NCBI GenBank assembly: GCA_964609585.1
Contig: CAZSRA010000001.1
Span: 156,697-220,696, forward strand
Direction: 5' to 3'
Source: an uncultured Candidatus Saccharimonadales bacterium
GTDB taxonomy: Bacteria; Patescibacteriota; Saccharimonadia; UBA4664
DNA length: 64,000 nucleotides
The notes below the pieces were generated by a model. The model saw only the letters and a program-made list of their open reading frames with translations. It was not told the origin of the DNA and ran no database searches. This document shows positions 41,539-53,663 of this stretch, in pieces (the stretch's first letter is position 1; each line of letters opens with the position of its first letter). A program made the translations under genes and the position numbers.

Positions 41539-41614
41539 GGTCCTGTCGTCTAGTGGTTAGGACATCCCCCTCTCACGGGGAAGATCAGGGGTTCGAATCC
41601 CCTCAGGACTACCA
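41539..41614 (+). tRNA. tRNA-Glu (anticodon CUC), CCA encoded
   Basis: 76-nt cloverleaf with 7-bp acceptor GGTCCTG/CAGGACT, anticodon loop CTCTCAC and T-loop GGGGTTCGAATCCCC. Confidence 0.85.
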
Positions 41615-41655: not shown

Positions 41656-42263
41656 TTACCCAAAACAAGGCTTTCGGCCTTGTTTTTTGGTTGCACAATG
41701 AAGTGGTTGGCGAGCGTTTTTATGGCGCGGTATGGTTCGGCCGTCCACTTCTTCGAGCGTGTTGTGGTAGCCGATGGCTGCCCTGTTAACGGTACCGCCT
41801 GACTTGGCTTTTTGGATCATGCCTTTGGCGACTTCGTTGGCTAGGTTGCCGGAATGGAACTCGGCGATGGTAGCCATGATGCCGTGGAGGAGCTTGCCGG
41901 ACGGGGTCTCGTCAATGTTCTCGGTAGCGGATACTAGCTTGGCTCCAGCGGTATGTAAAGCCAGGTTGGTGTAAACGTCATCTTCCCTGTTGCGGGCAAG
42001 GCGGTCGATTTTGTGAACGATGACGTAATCTATGGTTTTCGCTTCTTTGAGTAAGGCGAGCATGGGCTTGGAGCTGTGGTCGGTCGGCGGAGCGGGCAGA
42101 CTCTCCCCTATCGATTAACTCGGCGGTAACTTCTGCGCCTAGGCTTTCGGCTTTACGGGTACAGGCTTCGCGCTGGGTGGGGATTGAGTAGCCTTCGGGG
42201 TCGCGGTCTTTCTCTGCTTGGCCGGGGGGTCGAAACCCGGAGATATATAACAGCTTGCTTCAT
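41656..42263 (-). pseudogene. Serine recombinase (resolvase/large serine recombinase catalytic domain), frameshifted and 3'-truncated
   Basis: ATG with AAGGAGGTG RBS gives MKQAVIYLRVSTP; the frame is lost at a G6/C6 homopolymer (42223-42228), resumes with ...DRLARNRED... in a third frame, and the ORF finally reads through the terminator hairpin. No C-terminal DNA-binding/recombinase domain remains. Confidence 0.7.
41660..41690. terminator. Bidirectional terminator hairpin downstream of the tRNA
   Basis: CCAAAACAAGGC-TTTCG-GCCTTGTTTTTTGG. Confidence 0.6.
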
Positions 42264-42372
42264 ACTGGCACCTCCTTCGTGTTAGTCCAGGAGAGGATAC
42301 CAGATGTTTGCCGAATCACGGAGGATAAAACATCATCGGCTTTCCCGGCTGTTTAGTCGTCAGAAGAGAAAT

Positions 42373-42391
42373 ATGTAATTGAAAATTACAT
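42373..42391. promoter_or_regulatory. Perfect inverted repeat upstream of the recombinase remnant (candidate recombinase binding or res subsite)
   Basis: ATGTAATT-GAA-AATTACAT. Confidence 0.3.
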
Positions 42392-42666
42392 AGAGTTGCC
42401 TGCACATTGGGGACGATAATGTGTCTGGTAAAGCTAAATCACGACAAATTACGTGACAGCGATCTAGCGGACGAAACAGCAGGTGATCTAATATTTCCAT
42501 GCCAGGAGAGAGTTAGACTAATAGGCTTTCAGCTTCATAAGTCGCTCCCTAAGTAGTATGTATATAATGGAGTTGTCGGATTTAACGGCCATAGGCTTGG
42601 GGAAAGCATTTCGGGTGATTTGAGGGCTACATCAGTTGAATAGCGAAGTGAAAATTATTCTTAACC

Positions 42667-42701
42667 AAAAAAACTGCCAGTATTTAACTGGCAGTTTTTT
42701 T
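42667..42701. terminator. Bidirectional rho-independent terminator
   Basis: AAAAAAACTGCCAG-TATTTAA-CTGGCAGTTTTTTT. Confidence 0.65.
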
Positions 42702-42711
42702 GGTTAAAGCT

Positions 42712-43023
42712 TTAGCACTCGGGAAGTTTGAGCAGGTTATTCTGATCAGTTGCATCGGGGCGAGTCTGCAAGAACTTTGTTCCGTTGGCGCTAGTGTTCA
42801 CGTAGCAGTATGCTCGAGGGCGTACTCGTTCAACGTAGGCACGTACTTCAAAACCTAGGCTCCCGTTAAGATAGCTCACAACGGTCTCTCGCGTACTAAT
42901 CACATTTTTGCTTACTCTACCATCGGGCTCATATTGCACCCATTGGTAGTGGGTTGCTGCCTCGTGGGGGTTAGAATGGTTCCCGTTATCTTTTCGAATA
43001 CCAACTATTTCAATTTCTGCCAT
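42712..43023 (-). CDS. Small hypothetical protein (103 aa), second gene of a two-gene island operon
   Basis: ORF immediately followed by a terminator; no recognisable catalytic motif. Confidence 0.45.
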   Translation of the reverse strand: MAEIEIVGIRKDNGNHSNPHEAATHYQWVQYEPDGRVSKNVISTRETVVSYLNGSLGFEVRAYVERVRPRAYCYVNTSANGTKFLQTRPDATDQNNLLKLPEC

Positions 43024-43181
43024 TGCAAATCCTTCAGATATGTTACATTGTAATTATTATCCAAATCTGCTACTGTAGCAGGTGATCCGGAAATTCGGCT
43101 GCCAGGCCATTGTTTTCGGTTTAAAGAGTCTCGGTAGCGAAACCTGTCGAGCCTCTTTTTATTTGCCTACATTCCGCCCTC

Positions 43182-43649
43182 CTAAAATGGTATGTCACCC
43201 AAGTTTATTTTTCCCTCGTCCTCACTTGTGTTGTCGGTGTCCGTTGTATCTGGTTCTTTTGTGAATTCTTTCTCTTTGAGCTGGATTACGTAAGCATCAC
43301 CCTCAGAGTTAATTCCTAATATGCGTAGCGGTACTTTCTCAAAATTGTCGTACCTGCCACTGTACTTCGATGTATCAATATTCTTGATATCAAAAAACGA
43401 ATTCGCCACGATAACACCGCCTTGGGTATCGTTCGGAATTCGTACCTTTAAACCATATTTTGCATCCGCGAGAGTGAAATGAAGCGCAATTTTTTGATTT
43501 TCTCTGTCATACAAGAGAATGGCCTTGTGCTGGCTGGTGATATTTTGTTTTCCGATGAACGCACGGGGCAAGCCGAATGCCTTATTCTCGGTGATTGAGA
43601 TATATTCTTTGGTCCTAACCCCAACGTCTTTAAATATCTCGAAAGGCAC
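43182..43649 (-). CDS. Hypothetical protein with acidic disordered C-terminal tail ending DIPF (SSB-C-terminus-like)
   Basis: C-terminus EPDTTDTDNTSEDEGKINLGDIPF; N-terminal two-thirds is beta-rich and of unknown fold. Confidence 0.45.
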   Translation of the reverse strand: MPFEIFKDVGVRTKEYISITENKAFGLPRAFIGKQNITSQHKAILLYDRENQKIALHFTLADAKYGLKVRIPNDTQGGVIVANSFFDIKNIDTSKYSGRYDNFEKVPLRILGINSEGDAYVIQLKEKEFTKEPDTTDTDNTSEDEGKINLGDIPF

Positions 43650-44329
43650 TTTTTCTACTCCGACTCCGAATGATTTTATTGATATTGTTATCGTATTCCC
43701 CTTGCTCTCTTAATGCAATACCTCCCCTTGTGAACTCTTATTCTCACTCTTTGTGGTGTAAATGGGCTGCCGGGTTTGAACATTTAGATGGTAGTAGATA
43801 CAAAAAACCAAAGATCTAGCCCCATAGTTCTTATGGCTTAGTAAATTACTTGTATTTTTCCTGCTAATAAATATCTCCTTGTAATATTGATATTGTCACG
43901 TTGTTTCTCTTTAAATACGCAGCGAGCTGTTCTTTGTGTGGCTAAACACAATATGCGGCTATAGTCTGCTTCGGCTAAGACTGTCGTATGGCCACTGACT
44001 GAGTAGACATATATGTTCAATCGTTCTGAAGCCGACAGAACAGGACTACCAAAGGATTTATTTGAGTGTGCTCCCGGAAAAGTCGGCAAGAAAGATGCTG
44101 GCTTTTTGGCTCTAGCCAAATACCAGCAAGGGCGAATATGAACATCACAAAAGCGAGGACGGTATTATAATTCATGGCCTCAGCGCGTCAAAACCCTTGC
44201 TATAGCATATATGTACAACTGATATCATGTATGAAAGTTTTGTGTGCGCGGGAATTTGCACTTGTTGTCACGCCAGGGGGATGCTTGTGCATACCAATTT
44301 GGGGCGGCATGGGACGGTTTTATCCGAGC

Positions 44330-44987: not shown

Positions 44988-45227
44988 GGTTGATGGTGGC
45001 ATTTATTTTGCATCATGTCGTGCTGGTGGTGATGTTGACTCAAAGTGTAGTGAGATGATTCCCTAGACTCTCTGGAGCTTAAGTCACCTTATTTTTGTAA
45101 TTATCTTTACGGTTATGATAAGGCGTAGCTATTTATTTGTATTTTAATGATAATTATGTTATAGTGTTCTAATCGTTGATCTCGAGATTTTTTGAGACGA
45201 CGACGCGATCTTGACTATCACAGCTAT

Positions 45228-45246
45228 TGAGCGTGATGAACGCTCA
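45228..45246. promoter_or_regulatory. Palindrome overlapping the putative promoter of the cold-shock-domain gene
   Basis: TGAGCG-TGATGAA-CGCTCA located between TTGACT and the GAGGAGG RBS. Confidence 0.3.
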
Positions 45247-45260
45247 GTGAGGAGGCCGTA

Positions 45261-45914
45261 ATGGCTGGTACCGCACGCCCCCGTTCCGCTGGCCAGTCGG
45301 GCGGCCAGAGTACGGTACGGGTGGTCTTCGTGAGGGTGGTTGGGTACTTCTCCGACCGCGGCTTCGGCTTTGCCGAGATCATCGGCGAAACCAGTGGACC
45401 CACAAAGGTCTTCTTCCGCATCGAGAAGCTCTGCATCGTGACCGGCTCCTATGAGGAGCCGAAGTTCGCCGACCCTCACCCGAACCCGGCGGAGATCAAC
45501 CCGCTCCAGATCGAGGCCGGAAGGCAAGTCGTGATGGAGGTGGAATCTACCACTAAGGGCCTGCGGGCACGGCGTTGGGGAATAGCCCCTGTGTTCTCGC
45601 CGATCACCCAGCTTATTCGCGAGAAGGTGCTGGACGGCTTCATCGGTGGGCATGTGGGCATATACCAGAACGGCAGGCGGTTCGTGGCGTACCCCAAGGG
45701 GACATTCACGGGCTATGAGCTCACCGAAAGTGAGCTTACCGTGTACTTCACCTGGGAGGACTTCGGTGACTCGGTCCTGGAGGGTTACCAGGATCACCGG
45801 CAGTACTACTTCACTGGGCCCGCCTGGCGACTCGGCTTTGGGGGACTGCTCGAACTCCATCCCTCGGACCACTCCGATGAGCTGATCATGTTCTGGCCTC
45901 CGGACCAGAAGTGA
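45261..45914 (+). CDS. Cold-shock-domain (CSD) fusion protein with unknown C-terminal domain (high-GC ORF)
   Basis: VRVVGYFSDRGFGFAEIIGETSGPTKVFF matches the CspA RNP1/RNP2 pattern; about 150 further aa of unknown function. Confidence 0.5.
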   Translation: MAGTARPRSAGQSGGQSTVRVVFVRVVGYFSDRGFGFAEIIGETSGPTKVFFRIEKLCIVTGSYEEPKFADPHPNPAEINPLQIEAGRQVVMEVESTTKGLRARRWGIAPVFSPITQLIREKVLDGFIGGHVGIYQNGRRFVAYPKGTFTGYELTESELTVYFTWEDFGDSVLEGYQDHRQYYFTGPAWRLGFGGLLELHPSDHSDELIMFWPPDQK

Positions 45915-45923
45915 GCTCGCGAC

Positions 45924-45975
45924 GCCGGAGCCCCGGAGATTGGCGCGCATTACGCGCGTCCTCTGGGGCTCCGGC
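45924..45975 (+). terminator. Long nested GC-rich hairpin downstream of the CSD gene
   Basis: GCCGGAGCCCCGGAG ... CTCTGGGGCTCCGGC enclosing GCGCGCATTACGCGCG. Confidence 0.45.
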
Positions 45976-46222: not shown

Positions 46223-46735
46223 ATGTTAGATGGCAGCCAAAACCCCAGGAGGTTTTCAGTGAGCACCGAACTGCACTTCGATCCGGACAACTTTCCGCCT
46301 GAGCTCTTGCCGTTCGCAGAGTTGCGTGACGGTTTCCTGTGCTACGTGAGACAGGATGTTCTGATCGAGGTTCCCGAGGGCTTCGCTGGCGCAACGCTCA
46401 TTCACGTCATCCTCACCCAAGACGTCAACTCTGATCTCGGTGAGGGCATCGTCAAGCAGGGCGGCGCTACTGCGACCGTGAAGGTCGCGACCTGCAAGAT
46501 CCACGAGACGACCATCATCGTGGGGGTACCGGATCTCGATCAGGCGAATGCGCTCCTTCGGGACGTCGTGGCTGGTACCGTCGACTTCACGACGACGATC
46601 CGACCGCGGCCGGAGGAGACTGGAGCGTCAACTGCGGCGGGCCGGCTGGCAGAATATCTGGGCTGGGTCGAACACGACACTCAAAAGGCCGCTGCACTGC
46701 TCGGCGAGGGTCTGAGGCGTCTGTTCGGCAAGTAA
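46223..46735 (+). CDS. Hypothetical protein (high-GC ORF)
   Basis: ORF with a GAGAGAAGG RBS; no known motif. Confidence 0.4.
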   Translation: MLDGSQNPRRFSVSTELHFDPDNFPPELLPFAELRDGFLCYVRQDVLIEVPEGFAGATLIHVILTQDVNSDLGEGIVKQGGATATVKVATCKIHETTIIVGVPDLDQANALLRDVVAGTVDFTTTIRPRPEETGASTAAGRLAEYLGWVEHDTQKAAALLGEGLRRLFGK

Positions 46736-52611: not shown

Positions 52612-53136
52612 ATGAAGATCCTTTTTATTCAAACCGGAGGGACATTAGATAAAGAATATGAAGCGGGCGCTAAGGCCTACAGTTTCATTATTACGACACC
52701 AGCAGTAGAAAGAATTTTGGCCCAAGTTAATCCGTCGTTTCAGTTTCGGATTCTGTCGGTAGCGCGCAAAGACAGCATGGATTTGACGGACGTTGACCGA
52801 CAGGCGATCGTGACGGCTTGCCAAGAAGCGCCGGAGGATCGGATTGTGATTACTCATGGTACGGATACGATGAGTAAGACCGGAGAGGCGCTCAGTGTTA
52901 TTAAGAACAAGCGCATCGTTTTGACGGGGGCGCTACGGCCAGAGCGATTTTATAACTCGGATGCGACGTTTAACATTGGTACGGCGATTGGTGGTGTGCA
53001 GTCACTGCCGAACGGGATTTATATTGCTATGAGCGGCCTGATTTTTTCGTGGGATCAGTATTTGAAGCACCCGAAGACGGGGCAATTTTTGCCGGTTGAG
53101 GCGACTCAACAATCAGTTGAGCCAACATTGCTTTAA
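52612..53136 (+). CDS. Asparaginase N-terminal-domain-only protein (half-size L-asparaginase-like)
   Basis: TGGTLDK, ITHGTDTM and TGALRP motifs; about 174 aa, no C-terminal domain. Confidence 0.6.
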   Translation: MKILFIQTGGTLDKEYEAGAKAYSFIITTPAVERILAQVNPSFQFRILSVARKDSMDLTDVDRQAIVTACQEAPEDRIVITHGTDTMSKTGEALSVIKNKRIVLTGALRPERFYNSDATFNIGTAIGGVQSLPNGIYIAMSGLIFSWDQYLKHPKTGQFLPVEATQQSVEPTLL

Positions 53137-53162: not shown

Positions 53163-53663
53163 ATGCATATACGATTCATCATTGCTGGTGGAACGATCGA
53201 TAAGACCTACAACGATCTTACGGGTGATTTGGCGTTTGGTGATACTCATTTGAATCAGATGTTGAAGCAAGCTCGGTTTGACGGTCAACTTACGACCGAG
53301 CACATTCTCATGAAAGATAGTCTCGATATGACTCAAGAGGACCGTGATAAGTTGGCAGAGGCTTGTTTTGACGCGAAGGAAGACAAGATTGTGGTGACTC
53401 ACGGGCTCGATACCATGATTGAATCGGCGCAGACAATTGAGCTGGTGCTTCGTGATAAGGCGAAAACAGTGGTGATGACGGGAGCCATGGTTCCTTATAG
53501 CTTGGGTGCATCTTCGGACGCGCTATTTAATTTGGGAACAGCTCTGGCGTTTGTGCAATCGCTTCAGCCAGGAGTATTTATTGCGATGAATGGGCATTTT
53601 TTCCGAAGCGACCAAGTACATCGCGATAAGGATGGGGCGTTTAAGGCTCGTAGCGAGGCGTGA
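53163..53663 (+). CDS. Asparaginase N-terminal-domain-only protein, tandem paralog
   Basis: AGGTIDK, VTHGLDTM and TGAMVP motifs; about 166 aa. Confidence 0.6.
   Translation: MHIRFIIAGGTIDKTYNDLTGDLAFGDTHLNQMLKQARFDGQLTTEHILMKDSLDMTQEDRDKLAEACFDAKEDKIVVTHGLDTMIESAQTIELVLRDKAKTVVMTGAMVPYSLGASSDALFNLGTALAFVQSLQPGVFIAMNGHFFRSDQVHRDKDGAFKARSEA

What the first reader, a model, noticed from the sequence alone, without database searches (positions are those of the whole stretch)
42712..43649. Two-gene island operon encoding a protein with an SSB-like acidic DIPF C-terminal tip
The 155-aa product ends in a low-complexity acidic tail, ...TKEPDTTDTDNTSEDEGKINLGDIPF. Bacterial SSB proteins end in an acidic disordered tail with the consensus tip D-D-D-I-P-F, which is the docking site for many replication and repair proteins. 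The N-terminal 120 aa do not look like an OB-fold SSB, so this could be an SSB-tail mimic, for example a phage or plasmid factor that competes for SSB-interacting proteins. It is co-transcribed with a 103-aa protein of unknown function. A long AT-rich leader with promoter-like elements lies upstream, and a perfect bidirectional terminator (42667-42701) closes the operon.
Basis: partly seen in the sequence, partly recalled or inferred. Interest (0 to 1): 0.6.

Follow-up and report, generated by a model that had tools for sequence, protein, structure and literature searches.

The report
SSB docking tail on non-SSB protein

Summary
ORF-A (43182-43649, minus strand, 155 aa) ends in ...INLGDIPF after a 28-residue acidic stretch. 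A DUF3892 gene and a perfect 22-bp terminator follow it.

The tail is not chance. All close homologues end in [DE][IV]PF. Some carry VIEDIGDEPINLDDIPF, which matches a housekeeping SSB in an rpsF-ssb-rpsR operon (…VVIEDIDDKPIDLSEIPF). The same tail sits on 14 sequence clusters of phage-contig proteins that the two SSB seeds did not detect. A second branch of the ORF-A family also carries the tip; its nearest listed relatives lack it.

The body is not an OB fold. The AlphaFold2 model (pLDDT 90.7) gives two beta-beta-alpha-beta-beta units. Its likeness to AbrB is weak. The family has no Pfam model and at least 178 clusters, most without the tail.

Close relatives lie beside conjugative coupling ATPases, relaxase-like genes and serine recombinases. 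The window copy lies in a low-GC remnant next to tRNA-Glu.

My best reading is a nucleic-acid-binding protein that docks onto SSB partner proteins, as an adaptor or as a competitor. This is inferred, not shown.

Separately, a roughly 160-nt structured intergenic element after ORF-A is better conserved than ORF-A itself and matches no Rfam family.

The parts
43182..43649 (-). ORF-A, 155 aa, GTG start preceded by GGAG. It has a basic N-terminal domain and an acidic tail ending in DIPF.
   Evidence: It belongs to a family with no Pfam, PHROG, PADLOC or NCBIfam model. There are 4 close homologues among 5.8 billion proteins and 178 distant relatives among 1.84 billion cluster representatives.
43269..43649 (-). 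N-terminal domain (residues 1-127). Predicted as two tandem beta-beta-alpha-beta-beta units. pI is 9.3. It is not an OB fold.
   Evidence: AlphaFold2 with a 93-sequence alignment gave mean pLDDT 90.7. Elements: E17-19, E24-27, H29-35, E42-48, E53-59, then E67-70, E78-81, H83-88 ... E118-123. There are weak AbrB-family hits for the first half only (E = 0.1). Half-against-half hhalign gave E = 0.0011.
43185..43268 (-). Acidic low-complexity tail (residues 128-155). The SSB-type tip INLGDIPF is at 43185-43208, and DIPF is at 43185-43196.
   Evidence: The same extended motif occurs in a housekeeping SSB and in phage SSBs.
43021..43186 (-). Conserved structured intergenic element. It contains an SD-like GGAGG; an ATG-TAG 'start-stop' (43172-43167); invariant hairpin H1 (43158-43123); small hairpin H2 (about 43108-43097); hairpin H3 (about 43092-43059); and then the SD and ATG of the DUF3892 gene.
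   Evidence: The DNA is better conserved than ORF-A coding sequence (0.69-0.73 against 0.58-0.65; flanks 0.34-0.46). A 21-mer is identical in 9 metagenome contigs. nhmmer and the covariance model find it once per locus. In 8 of the 9 metagenome contigs carrying the 21-mer it follows an ORF-A-family gene. Compensatory changes occur in H3. There is no Rfam match.
42712..43023 (-). ORF-B, 103 aa, a DUF3892 protein.
   Evidence: Pfam PF13031, E = 2.5e-9. Identity is 64-80% across loci. The literature describes DUF3892 as uncharacterised, predicted to be defence-linked, with a dsRBD/HPF-like fold.
42661..42707 (.). Perfect palindromic intrinsic terminator with A and T runs on both sides, so it is bidirectional.
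   Evidence: 20 pairs counted; 22-bp stem, -31.9 kcal/mol, z = -9.8.
41656..42063 (-). Fragment of a large serine recombinase, truncated at both ends.
   Evidence: It matches Pfam Resolvase profile positions 55-144 of 145. It aligns to residues 80-202 of the 456-aa recombinase of locus L005. Upstream frames are broken.
41539..41614 (+). tRNA-Glu (CTC), which flanks the island.
42200..44300 (.). Low-GC patch (0.40-0.46) with reversed GC skew. This is the foreign segment that carries ORF-A, the intergenic element and ORF-B.

Best explanation
ORF-A is a small, basic protein of a nucleic-acid-binding type. It belongs to an unannotated family predicted to fold as a tandem beta-beta-alpha-beta-beta pseudo-dimer that resembles AbrB only loosely. 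In a sub-branch carried by integrative and conjugative-type elements, this protein has acquired an SSB C-terminal docking peptide (SSB-Ct). It is not an SSB paralogue.

Proposed mechanism. The disordered acidic tail, with its terminal Ile-Pro-Phe carboxylate, inserts into the pockets on replication, repair and recombination enzymes that normally receive the SSB tail. The N-terminal domain holds the protein on the element's DNA or RNA. The element thereby recruits host SSB-partner enzymes to its own nucleic acid, for example during establishment or replication after transfer. The gene is followed by a conserved structured leader that controls a small downstream gene, here DUF3892.

What is shown: the tail's identity, its conservation, its presence in two branches of the family, the non-OB predicted fold, and the mobile-element context. 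What is inferred: nucleic-acid binding by the N-terminal domain, docking to SSB partners, and recruitment rather than competition.
For: 1. The tip is conserved in all close homologues. The locus L005 homologue from a Candidatus Saccharimonadales MAG ends in EDIGDEPINLDDIPF.
2. That 15-17-residue peptide matches true SSBs. P0283 (PF00436) ends in ...DDVVIEDIDDKPIDLSEIPF and lies in an S6-SSB-S18-EF-P operon. Of the 120 best SSB relatives, 116 end in -IPF.
3. The tail peptide is identical across unrelated proteins while the coding DNA is only 56-76% identical, so selection acts on the peptide.
4. The tip occurs in two separate branches of the family. The nearest listed relatives of P0159/P0075 (37-52% identical) lack it.
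5. The same tail is attached to 14 N-terminal sequence clusters of viral-contig proteins that the E. coli and B. subtilis SSB seeds did not detect.
6. The N-terminal domain is basic (pI 9.3, charge +3.7). Tail-less relatives have a median pI of 9.3.
7. The confident model is not an OB fold.
8. Relatives lie directly after a TraD/VirD4-like coupling ATPase and near Replic_Relax, serine recombinase and RadC genes. No OB-fold SSB is encoded in the stretches of those loci that I hold.
9. Established knowledge: the SSB-Ct hexapeptide to nonapeptide recruits at least 17 partner proteins (PMC10018359, PMC5872125).
Against: 1. No binding of any kind was tested.
2. The window's own tail is a degenerate version (SEDEGKINLGDIPF). 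It has one acidic residue directly before IPF, where the consensus has two or three.
3. This copy sits in a decayed island, so it may no longer function.
4. Most of the family lacks the tail, so the basic function of the domain does not need it.
5. The AbrB and DNA-binding link is weak. PDB profile hits reach only E = 0.1 and cover the first half only. No Pfam hit was found in 93 members. The best Foldseek PDB match has E = 0.18.
6. The organisms that carry the housekeeping SSB (L138) and ORF-A could not be shown to be the same lineage.
7. A C-terminal LPF can also act as a ClpXP degradation signal (PMC5143411).
Confidence: 0.45

Rival explanations
1. Decoy or competitor. The protein does not need to sit on DNA. 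Its tails, possibly several per oligomer, occupy the SSB-Ct pockets of host enzymes and keep them away from SSB-coated DNA. This could protect incoming element ssDNA from nucleases or recombination, or blunt a defence that depends on SSB.
For: The evidence about the tail is the same as for the best explanation. The context is a mobile element whose neighbours are typical of establishment or anti-defence regions: RadC, toxin-antitoxin genes, Thoeris, and restriction-modification genes nearby.
Against: A pure decoy would not need a conserved, basic 127-residue domain that it shares with many tail-less relatives. No toxicity or inhibition data exist. The tail-bearing viral proteins include many true SSBs, whose tails recruit partners.
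Confidence: 0.2
2. Local regulator or antitoxin. ORF-A is an AbrB/MazE-like DNA-binding protein that controls the downstream small gene (DUF3892 or DUF1508). Its acidic tail binds that partner, as the MazE tail binds MazF, or serves as a C-terminal degradation signal. The likeness to SSB would then reflect shared recognition by a protease.
For: ORF-A-family genes, with or without the tail, are linked to the conserved intergenic element and a small downstream gene in all 13 loci where nhmmer or the exact motif search finds the element, except L135. Hairpin H3 is an inverted repeat (TTCCGGAT...ATCCGGAA) just upstream of the downstream gene. The first half gives weak AbrB-family hits. ClpXP recognises the LPF end of SsbA in Streptococcus mutans. 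DUF3892 has been predicted to be defence-linked.
Against: The 158-nt structured spacer is unlike the tight coupling of type II toxin-antitoxin pairs. There is no known toxin domain and no PADLOC hit. The downstream gene is swapped or absent in some loci while ORF-A keeps its tail (L002, L005). This idea does not explain why 15-17 residues match SSB rather than only the last three.
Confidence: 0.2
3. Relic. In this window the gene is a decaying passenger of a dead element, and its tail is drifting, so no current function exists here.
For: The recombinase is truncated at both ends. About 600 nt between the recombinase fragment and the terminator has no open frame. The tail deviates from the family consensus.
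Against: Both ORFs are intact and have ribosome-binding sites. The intergenic element scores as well as in other loci (156 bits). The terminator is perfect. An identical copy was assembled independently from a sequencing run (L001).
Confidence: 0.1

Closest known systems
Bacterial, phage and plasmid SSB (PF00436, an OB fold with a disordered linker and the SSB-Ct tip)
   Same: It has a disordered acidic C-terminal region that ends in the docking tip. Relatives share about 17 tail residues with a housekeeping SSB. It is carried by mobile elements, as plasmid and phage SSBs are.
   Different: The N-terminal domain is not an OB fold and has no sequence or fold match to SSB. ssDNA binding is unknown. 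Most family members have no tail.
Phage T7 gp2.5 (an ssDNA-binding protein of a different family with an acidic tail ending in Phe; from my own knowledge, and PMC10359462 listed)
   Same: It is a protein outside the canonical SSB family that uses an acidic C-terminal tail with a terminal aromatic residue to contact replication proteins.
   Different: gp2.5 has an OB-like core and demonstrated ssDNA binding. ORF-A's predicted core is a tandem beta-beta-alpha-beta-beta fold, and nothing has been demonstrated for it.
AbrB/MazE/SpoVT/MraZ/PhS018 swapped-hairpin barrel proteins
   Same: Each half has the beta-beta-alpha-beta-beta order. The three best PDB sequence hits are AbrB-family regulators, aligned in the canonical register. 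PhS018 (2glw) has the highest probability among the top 50 Foldseek PDB matches listed (0.41). MazE also has an acidic C-terminal tail (my own knowledge).
   Different: None of these matches is statistically significant. There is no PF04014 hit in 93 members. The second half has no match. Membership is unproven.
Short docking motifs shared by many proteins, such as the beta-clamp-binding motif (my own knowledge)
   Same: One short C-terminal peptide is attached to many unrelated domains to reach one hub. Here there are 14 N-terminal clusters in viral contigs, plus two branches of the ORF-A family.
   Different: I found no description of the SSB-Ct as a portable motif on non-SSB proteins in the searched literature. 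Those searches were limited.

Membership tests
SSB (PF00436) | N-terminal OB-fold ssDNA-binding domain | tested here: not met
   There is no Pfam or NCBIfam hit. The AF2 topology is two beta-beta-alpha-beta-beta units. There is no SSB among the top 50 Foldseek PDB matches listed, and the best E-value is 0.18.
SSB (PF00436) | Disordered linker followed by an acidic C-terminal tip ending in hydrophobic-Pro-Phe | tested here: met
   The protein ends in ...SEDEGKINLGDIPF. The tail charge is -7.2 and block-mean pLDDT is 64-74.
SSB-Ct docking motif | Terminal Phe at the very C-terminus, Pro at -2, and Ile/Leu/Val at -3 | tested here: met
   The window has DIPF followed by the stop codon. Homologues have DIPF, EIPF and DVPF.
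SSB-Ct docking motif | A run of acidic residues directly before the tip (DDD in E. coli) | tested here: inconclusive
   The window has L-G-D before IPF, so only one acidic residue. Relatives have L-D-D or L-S-E, as does the housekeeping SSB P0283 (L-S-E).
SSB-Ct docking motif | Match to the SSB tail of the same biological setting | tested here: met
   The tails compared are VIEDIGDEPINLDDIPF (P0002, P0011, L005), VVIEDIDDKPIDLSEIPF (P0283, in an rpsF-ssb-rpsR operon) and VVLEDIDDKPINLDDIPF (a phage SSB). I could not prove that these come from the same lineage.
SSB-Ct docking motif | Binds the SSB-Ct pockets of partner proteins | not testable with these tools
   This needs peptide-binding assays or co-folding of complexes.
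AbrB/MazE/SpoVT swapped-hairpin superfamily | beta-beta-alpha-beta-beta unit, two units forming one barrel | tested here: inconclusive
AbrB/MazE/SpoVT swapped-hairpin superfamily | Significant sequence or profile match to the family | tested here: not met
   There is no Pfam hit in 93 members. The PDB profile hits have E = 0.1-0.47 and cover the first half only. The second half has none. hhalign against AbrB gave E = 0.079 and probability 0.7%.
DUF3892 (ORF-B) | Pfam PF13031 match above the gathering score | tested here: met
   37.9 bits against a cut-off of 22.3, covering 71 of 71 profile positions.
Type II toxin-antitoxin pair | Tightly coupled gene pair with a recognisable toxin | tested here: not met
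   The spacer is a 158-nt structured element. There is no toxin family and no PADLOC hit. The downstream gene is interchangeable.
Integrative conjugative or mobilisable element | Intact recombinase, relaxase and coupling protein | tested here: not met
   The window holds only a recombinase fragment beside tRNA-Glu. The feature is met in the related loci L003, L004 and L005: a TraD/VirD4-like ATPase, Replic_Relax and a serine recombinase.
Known RNA families (Rfam 15), for the intergenic element | Covariance-model match | tested here: not met
   The only matches are chance hairpin hits on the terminator, all below the gathering scores.

The most novel reading that the evidence does not exclude
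In an uncultured bacterial lineage and its phages and conjugative elements, the SSB C-terminal peptide behaves as a portable docking module. Mobile DNA attaches it to many unrelated proteins to tap or jam the host's SSB interaction hub. It occurs on 14 N-terminal clusters in viral contigs and in two branches of the ORF-A family. In this reading ORF-A, the conserved structured intergenic RNA with its SD-ATG-TAG 'start-stop', and the small DUF3892 or DUF1508 gene together form a previously undescribed establishment or conflict cassette.
Probability: 0.3. Interest if true: 0.8.

Novelty: new variant of a known kind. Interest (0 to 1): 0.6.

Why it matters
The SSB tail is the central recruitment handle for bacterial replication, repair and recombination enzymes. 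Suppose mobile elements and phages copy that handle onto proteins that are not SSBs. This would reveal a general way for foreign DNA to borrow or block host genome-maintenance machinery.

It would also give a simple sequence signature (…PI[DN]L..IPF at the C-terminus) for finding such factors in uncultured bacteria. The unannotated family of about 127-residue domains, with at least 178 clusters, would gain a first functional lead.

The conserved 160-nt intergenic element is a separate candidate for a new regulatory RNA, or for a DNA site of the element.

Tried and rejected
**Family and collection searches**
- Pfam, PHROGs, PADLOC and NCBIfam gave nothing for ORF-A.
- tblastn of ORF-A and of two tail-less relatives against INPHARED phages and PLSDB plasmids found no match.
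- There are no relatives in IMG/VR. The ORF-A branch is therefore not seen in viral contigs or in sequenced phages and plasmids.

**Fold searches**
- Foldseek against PDB was not significant.

**Short-peptide searches**
- phmmer of 23-25-residue tails against PDB sequences was uninformative.

**SSB paralogue**
- Rejected; see the membership test.

**Recent DNA transfer of the tail between genes**
- Rejected. Synonymous sites differ, and DNA identity is only 56-76%.

**AbrB membership**
- The second half of the domain and a direct comparison with AbrB gave nothing.

**Naming the organism**
- Cluster look-ups returned no names.
- Only locus L005 is labelled, as a Candidatus Saccharimonadales MAG.
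- No shared genes link the SSB contig to the ORF-A contigs.

**att repeats**
- None is convincing.

**DUF3892 structure**
- The single-sequence model had pLDDT 45.7, so I ran no fold search on it.

**A called gene that is not real**
- A '156-aa gene' called on contig L001 between ORF-B and the recombinase fragment is not an open frame in genetic code 11.

**Hairpin H1 as a terminator**
- H1 does not qualify as a canonical intrinsic terminator on the sense strand, because only three U residues follow it.
Full report
**What is in the window**

On the minus strand, a 155-aa ORF (ORF-A, 43182-43649) starts at a GTG preceded by GGAG. It ends ...TKEPDTTDTDNTSEDEGKINLGDIPF. A 103-aa ORF (ORF-B, 42712-43023) lies 158 nt downstream. 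A perfect palindromic terminator closes the pair. Its 22-bp stem lies within 42661-42707, with a folding energy of -31.9 kcal/mol and z = -9.8.

ORF-A is the only open frame of at least 50 codons, in any frame of the 64-kb window, that ends in [ILVM]PF. ORF-B is a DUF3892 protein (Pfam E = 2.5e-9).

The segment from 42.2 to 44.3 kb has GC 0.40-0.46, against about 0.55 elsewhere, and its GC skew is reversed. It lies next to tRNA-Glu (41539-41614). It also lies next to a 135-aa fragment of a large serine recombinase (41656-42063). That fragment covers only Resolvase profile positions 55-144 and aligns to residues 80-202 of a 456-aa recombinase from a related locus.

The setting is a small, decayed island of foreign DNA. 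The promoter part of the finding is not above chance: 5 sites were found against 4.1 expected, and the best one is 515 nt upstream.

**The tail is a real SSB-type C-terminal peptide**

Only four proteins among 5.8 billion are close to ORF-A. All have an acidic tail ending in DIPF, DIPF, EIPF or DVPF. A fifth relative, in a Candidatus Saccharimonadales MAG, ends in EDIVIEDIGDEPINLDDIPF.

I back-translated P-I-[ND]-L-x-[DE]-I-P-F-stop and scanned viral contigs. More than 600 and more than 1000 annotated phage SSB records confirmed two of them.

A search with one of these SSBs found 1252 PF00436 proteins. Of the 120 best, 116 end in -IPF. The commonest endings are PIDLSEIPF (50), PIDLSQIPF (12) and PINLDDIPF (9). 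One of them, P0283, ends in ...SDDVVIEDIDDKPIDLSEIPF. It is encoded between ribosomal protein genes S6 and S18 and is followed by EF-P, which is the classical housekeeping ssb position.

The tails of ORF-A relatives (NTVIEDIGDEPINLDDIPF in P0002, and the same motif in P0011 and L005) therefore match a housekeeping SSB tail over about 17 residues. The window's own tail (SEDEGKINLGDIPF) is a shortened, less acidic version that keeps I-N-L-x-D-I-P-F.

The peptide is identical in unrelated proteins, but the DNA encoding it is only 56-76% identical. Selection therefore maintains the peptide, and recent DNA exchange does not explain it.

From the literature: the SSB-Ct (DDDIPF in E. coli, DDDLPF in Firmicutes) recruits at least 17 partner proteins (PMC10018359, PMC5872125, PMC5531588).

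**The body of the protein is not an SSB**

A profile search of 1.84 billion cluster representatives found 178 relatives (E <= 1e-3). Most are 120-150 aa long and have no tail. There is no Pfam hit in 93 members.

With a 93-sequence alignment, AlphaFold2 gave a confident model (mean pLDDT 90.7, pTM 0.75). Its elements are E17-19, E24-27, H29-35, E42-48 and E53-59, and then E67-70, E78-81, H83-88, E98-100, E104-107 and E118-123. These form two beta-beta-alpha-beta-beta units. This is not the beta1-3/alpha/beta4-5 order of an OB fold.

Foldseek against PDB found nothing significant, and no SSB appears among the top 50 matches listed. The match with the highest probability there is PhS018 (2glw), at probability 0.41. 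Against predicted viral structures it matched uncharacterised phage proteins at probability 1.0 and TM 0.4-0.65, for example Lactococcus phage KSY1 gp105.

The family profile hits three AbrB-family regulators in PDB at E = 0.1-0.47, on residues 18-66 and in the canonical register. The two halves align weakly to each other (E = 0.0011). The second half alone, and a direct comparison with AbrB, give nothing.

I therefore describe the fold as 'tandem beta-beta-alpha-beta-beta, AbrB-like at best' and do not file the protein in that superfamily.

The domain is basic (pI 9.3, charge +3.7) and the tail is acidic (charge -7.2). Tail-less relatives have a median pI of 9.3.

**The tail is an add-on found in two branches**

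Among the family, the tip occurs in the ORF-A branch (P0001-P0006, P0008, P0011, L005). It also occurs in the P0075/P0159 pair, which ends in ...RVEDIPF. The nearest listed relatives of that pair, at 37-52% identity, all lack the tail. Either gain happened twice or loss happened repeatedly.

Some members of the ORF-A branch keep only an acidic tail with a terminal Phe (…NPEF, …NTSF, …EADF).

In the viral-contig sample, 48 tail-bearing proteins were not detected by the SSB seeds. With their last 30 residues removed, they fall into 14 sequence clusters. Representatives of ten of these clusters have no Pfam hit. Only one has a marginal PHROG 'SSB' hit (E = 0.00097). Some may still be very divergent ssDNA-binding proteins.

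**Genomic context elsewhere**

In L003 and L004, ORF-A directly follows a TraD/VirD4-like coupling ATPase and precedes DUF3892. A Replic_Relax gene, a serine recombinase, HTH regulators, an M78 peptidase and Thoeris genes lie nearby.

In L002, ORF-A lies among ParE/RelB, PLD-nuclease, HTH, RadC and Replic_Relax genes.

In L005, it lies between a serine recombinase and Replic_Relax on one side and a tRNA-Leu that starts 34 nt after its stop codon on the other.

No OB-fold SSB is encoded in the stretches of these loci that I hold.

No relative occurs in IMG/VR, INPHARED or PLSDB.

Tail-less relatives that carry the same intergenic element lie next to restriction-modification genes or in other variable regions.

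This is the opposite of a housekeeping context.

**The spacer is a conserved structured element**

Between the window, L003 and L004, the 158-nt spacer is 69-73% identical. ORF-A coding DNA is 58-65% identical and the flanks are 34-46% identical.

A 21-mer (TACCGAGACTCTTTAAACCGA) is identical in nine metagenome contigs. In eight of them the upstream gene is an ORF-A-family member, mostly tail-less and only about 30% identical to ORF-A. In one (L135) it is an unrelated 270-aa protein.

The downstream gene is DUF3892 in seven loci, where it is 64-80% identical. It is DUF1508 in L002 and apparently in L135, judged there from its N-terminal sequence. It is another gene in L130/L136.

nhmmer and a covariance model find the element once per locus and nowhere else in the window or in the other loci I hold.

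Its parts, in order:
- An SD-like GGAGG.
- An ATG-TAG/TAA 5-8 nt later. In tail-less relatives this is the in-frame end of the ORF ('…EM*'). In tailed ones, ORF-A stops just before GGAGG.
- An invariant hairpin H1, with 12 pairs that never vary.
- A small hairpin H2.
- Hairpin H3 (TTTCCGGAT…ATCCGGAAA) with a conserved loop (ACTGT.ATTGTAGCA). It shows compensatory C:G to T:A changes in three sequences, and two G:U pairs on the sense strand in the window.
- The ribosome-binding site and ATG of the next gene.

There is no Rfam match.

I read the element most simply as an mRNA leader that couples or gates translation or transcription of the downstream gene. A DNA-level role, such as an operator, an origin of transfer or a single-strand origin, is not excluded. 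Co-transcription of the two genes is plausible but was not tested.

**How it most likely works**

Shown:
- A conserved, selected SSB-type docking peptide.
- A confident non-OB basic domain.
- Occurrence of the tip in two branches of the family.
- Residence in mobile elements.

Inferred:
- The tail docks into the SSB-Ct pockets of host enzymes.
- The N-terminal domain binds nucleic acid.
- The protein therefore acts as an adaptor that brings SSB partners to element DNA (confidence 0.45).

Rivals:
- A pure competitor or decoy (0.2).
- A local regulator or antitoxin whose tail binds its partner or acts as a ClpXP-type degradation signal, as shown for the LPF end of SsbA in Streptococcus mutans (PMC5143411) (0.2).
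- A functionless relic in this particular window (0.1).

DUF3892 itself is uncharacterised. It has been predicted to be defence-linked and to have a dsRBD/HPF-like fold of a three-stranded meander plus a helix. A low-confidence single-sequence model shows the same order of elements.

**Comparison, novelty and limits**

The protein works like an SSB tail carrier but is not an SSB. The closest analogies are plasmid and phage SSBs, and T7 gp2.5, which has a different core but an acidic tail ending in Phe.

My literature searches found no description of the SSB-Ct on non-SSB proteins. Those searches cover only open-access text.

I rate the finding a new variant of a known kind, with interest 0.6. 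The signal is clean and generalises beyond this locus. However, the function is untested, and the window's copy is a degenerate one in a dead island.

Limits:
- The organism of the window was not identified.
- Identity of lineage between the housekeeping SSB contig and the ORF-A hosts was not shown.

Noticed in passing
window 43021-43186 (-); also L002 10483-10644, L003 3995-4157, L004 10480-10646, L129-L137: A roughly 160-nt intergenic element is better conserved than the flanking ORF-A coding sequence. It contains an SD-like GGAGG plus an ATG-TAG 'start-stop', an invariant hairpin, and two hairpins with compensatory changes. It always lies just upstream of a small gene (DUF3892, DUF1508 or another). 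It has no Rfam family. The H1 loop (GCTAC) is complementary to the H3 loop (GTAGC), so a loop-loop contact is possible.
   Followed up: partly
viral-contig loci L006-L125: The C-terminal peptide …[VI][VI][IL]EDI[DG]D[EK]PI[DN]L[SD][DE]IPF ends 67 OB-fold SSBs. It also ends 48 proteins that the E. coli and B. subtilis SSB seeds did not detect. Those 48 fall into 14 N-terminal sequence clusters. Representatives of ten clusters have no Pfam family.
   Followed up: partly
window 41656-42063 (-) and 42064-42660: A serine recombinase fragment lacks its catalytic N-terminus and its whole C-terminal part. It abuts tRNA-Glu and is followed by about 600 nt without any open frame. A public gene call of 156 aa on the identical contig L001 is not an ORF in genetic code 11.
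   Followed up: yes
window 43677-43703 and 43885-43911: A 27-nt imperfect direct repeat (74% identity) lies upstream of ORF-A. On the sense strand both copies share ACAATATCAATA. A similar ATATATCAA[TG] lies just after hairpin H3 in the intergenic element of several related loci. It could be a promoter or an operator.
   Followed up: no
window 45159-45950: A high-GC patch (about 0.61) just beyond the island holds two long ORFs that overlap almost completely on opposite strands (263 aa on the minus strand, 217 aa on the plus strand). Of these two ORFs only the 217-aa one was searched, and it has no Pfam or NCBIfam hit. The neighbouring 170-aa ORF (46223-46735) has only a sub-threshold TetR_C match.
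   Followed up: no
window 52612-53136 and 53163-53663 (+): Two adjacent short ORFs (174 and 166 aa) both match the N-terminal domain of asparaginase (profile positions 1-154 and 2-160). They are tandem truncated paralogues rather than one split gene.
   Followed up: no
L005 10487-10593: In the Saccharimonadales MAG, the ORF-A homologue is followed 34 nt after its stop codon by tRNA-Leu (GAG). The stretch in between keeps only the first part of the intergenic element (GGAGG…ATGTAG). The module is therefore cut off at what may be an element boundary.
   Followed up: partly
window 1-64000: GC skew is positive in every 1-kb bin of the plus strand (0.06-0.33) except at 43-44 kb, inside the island, where it turns negative.
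   Followed up: no
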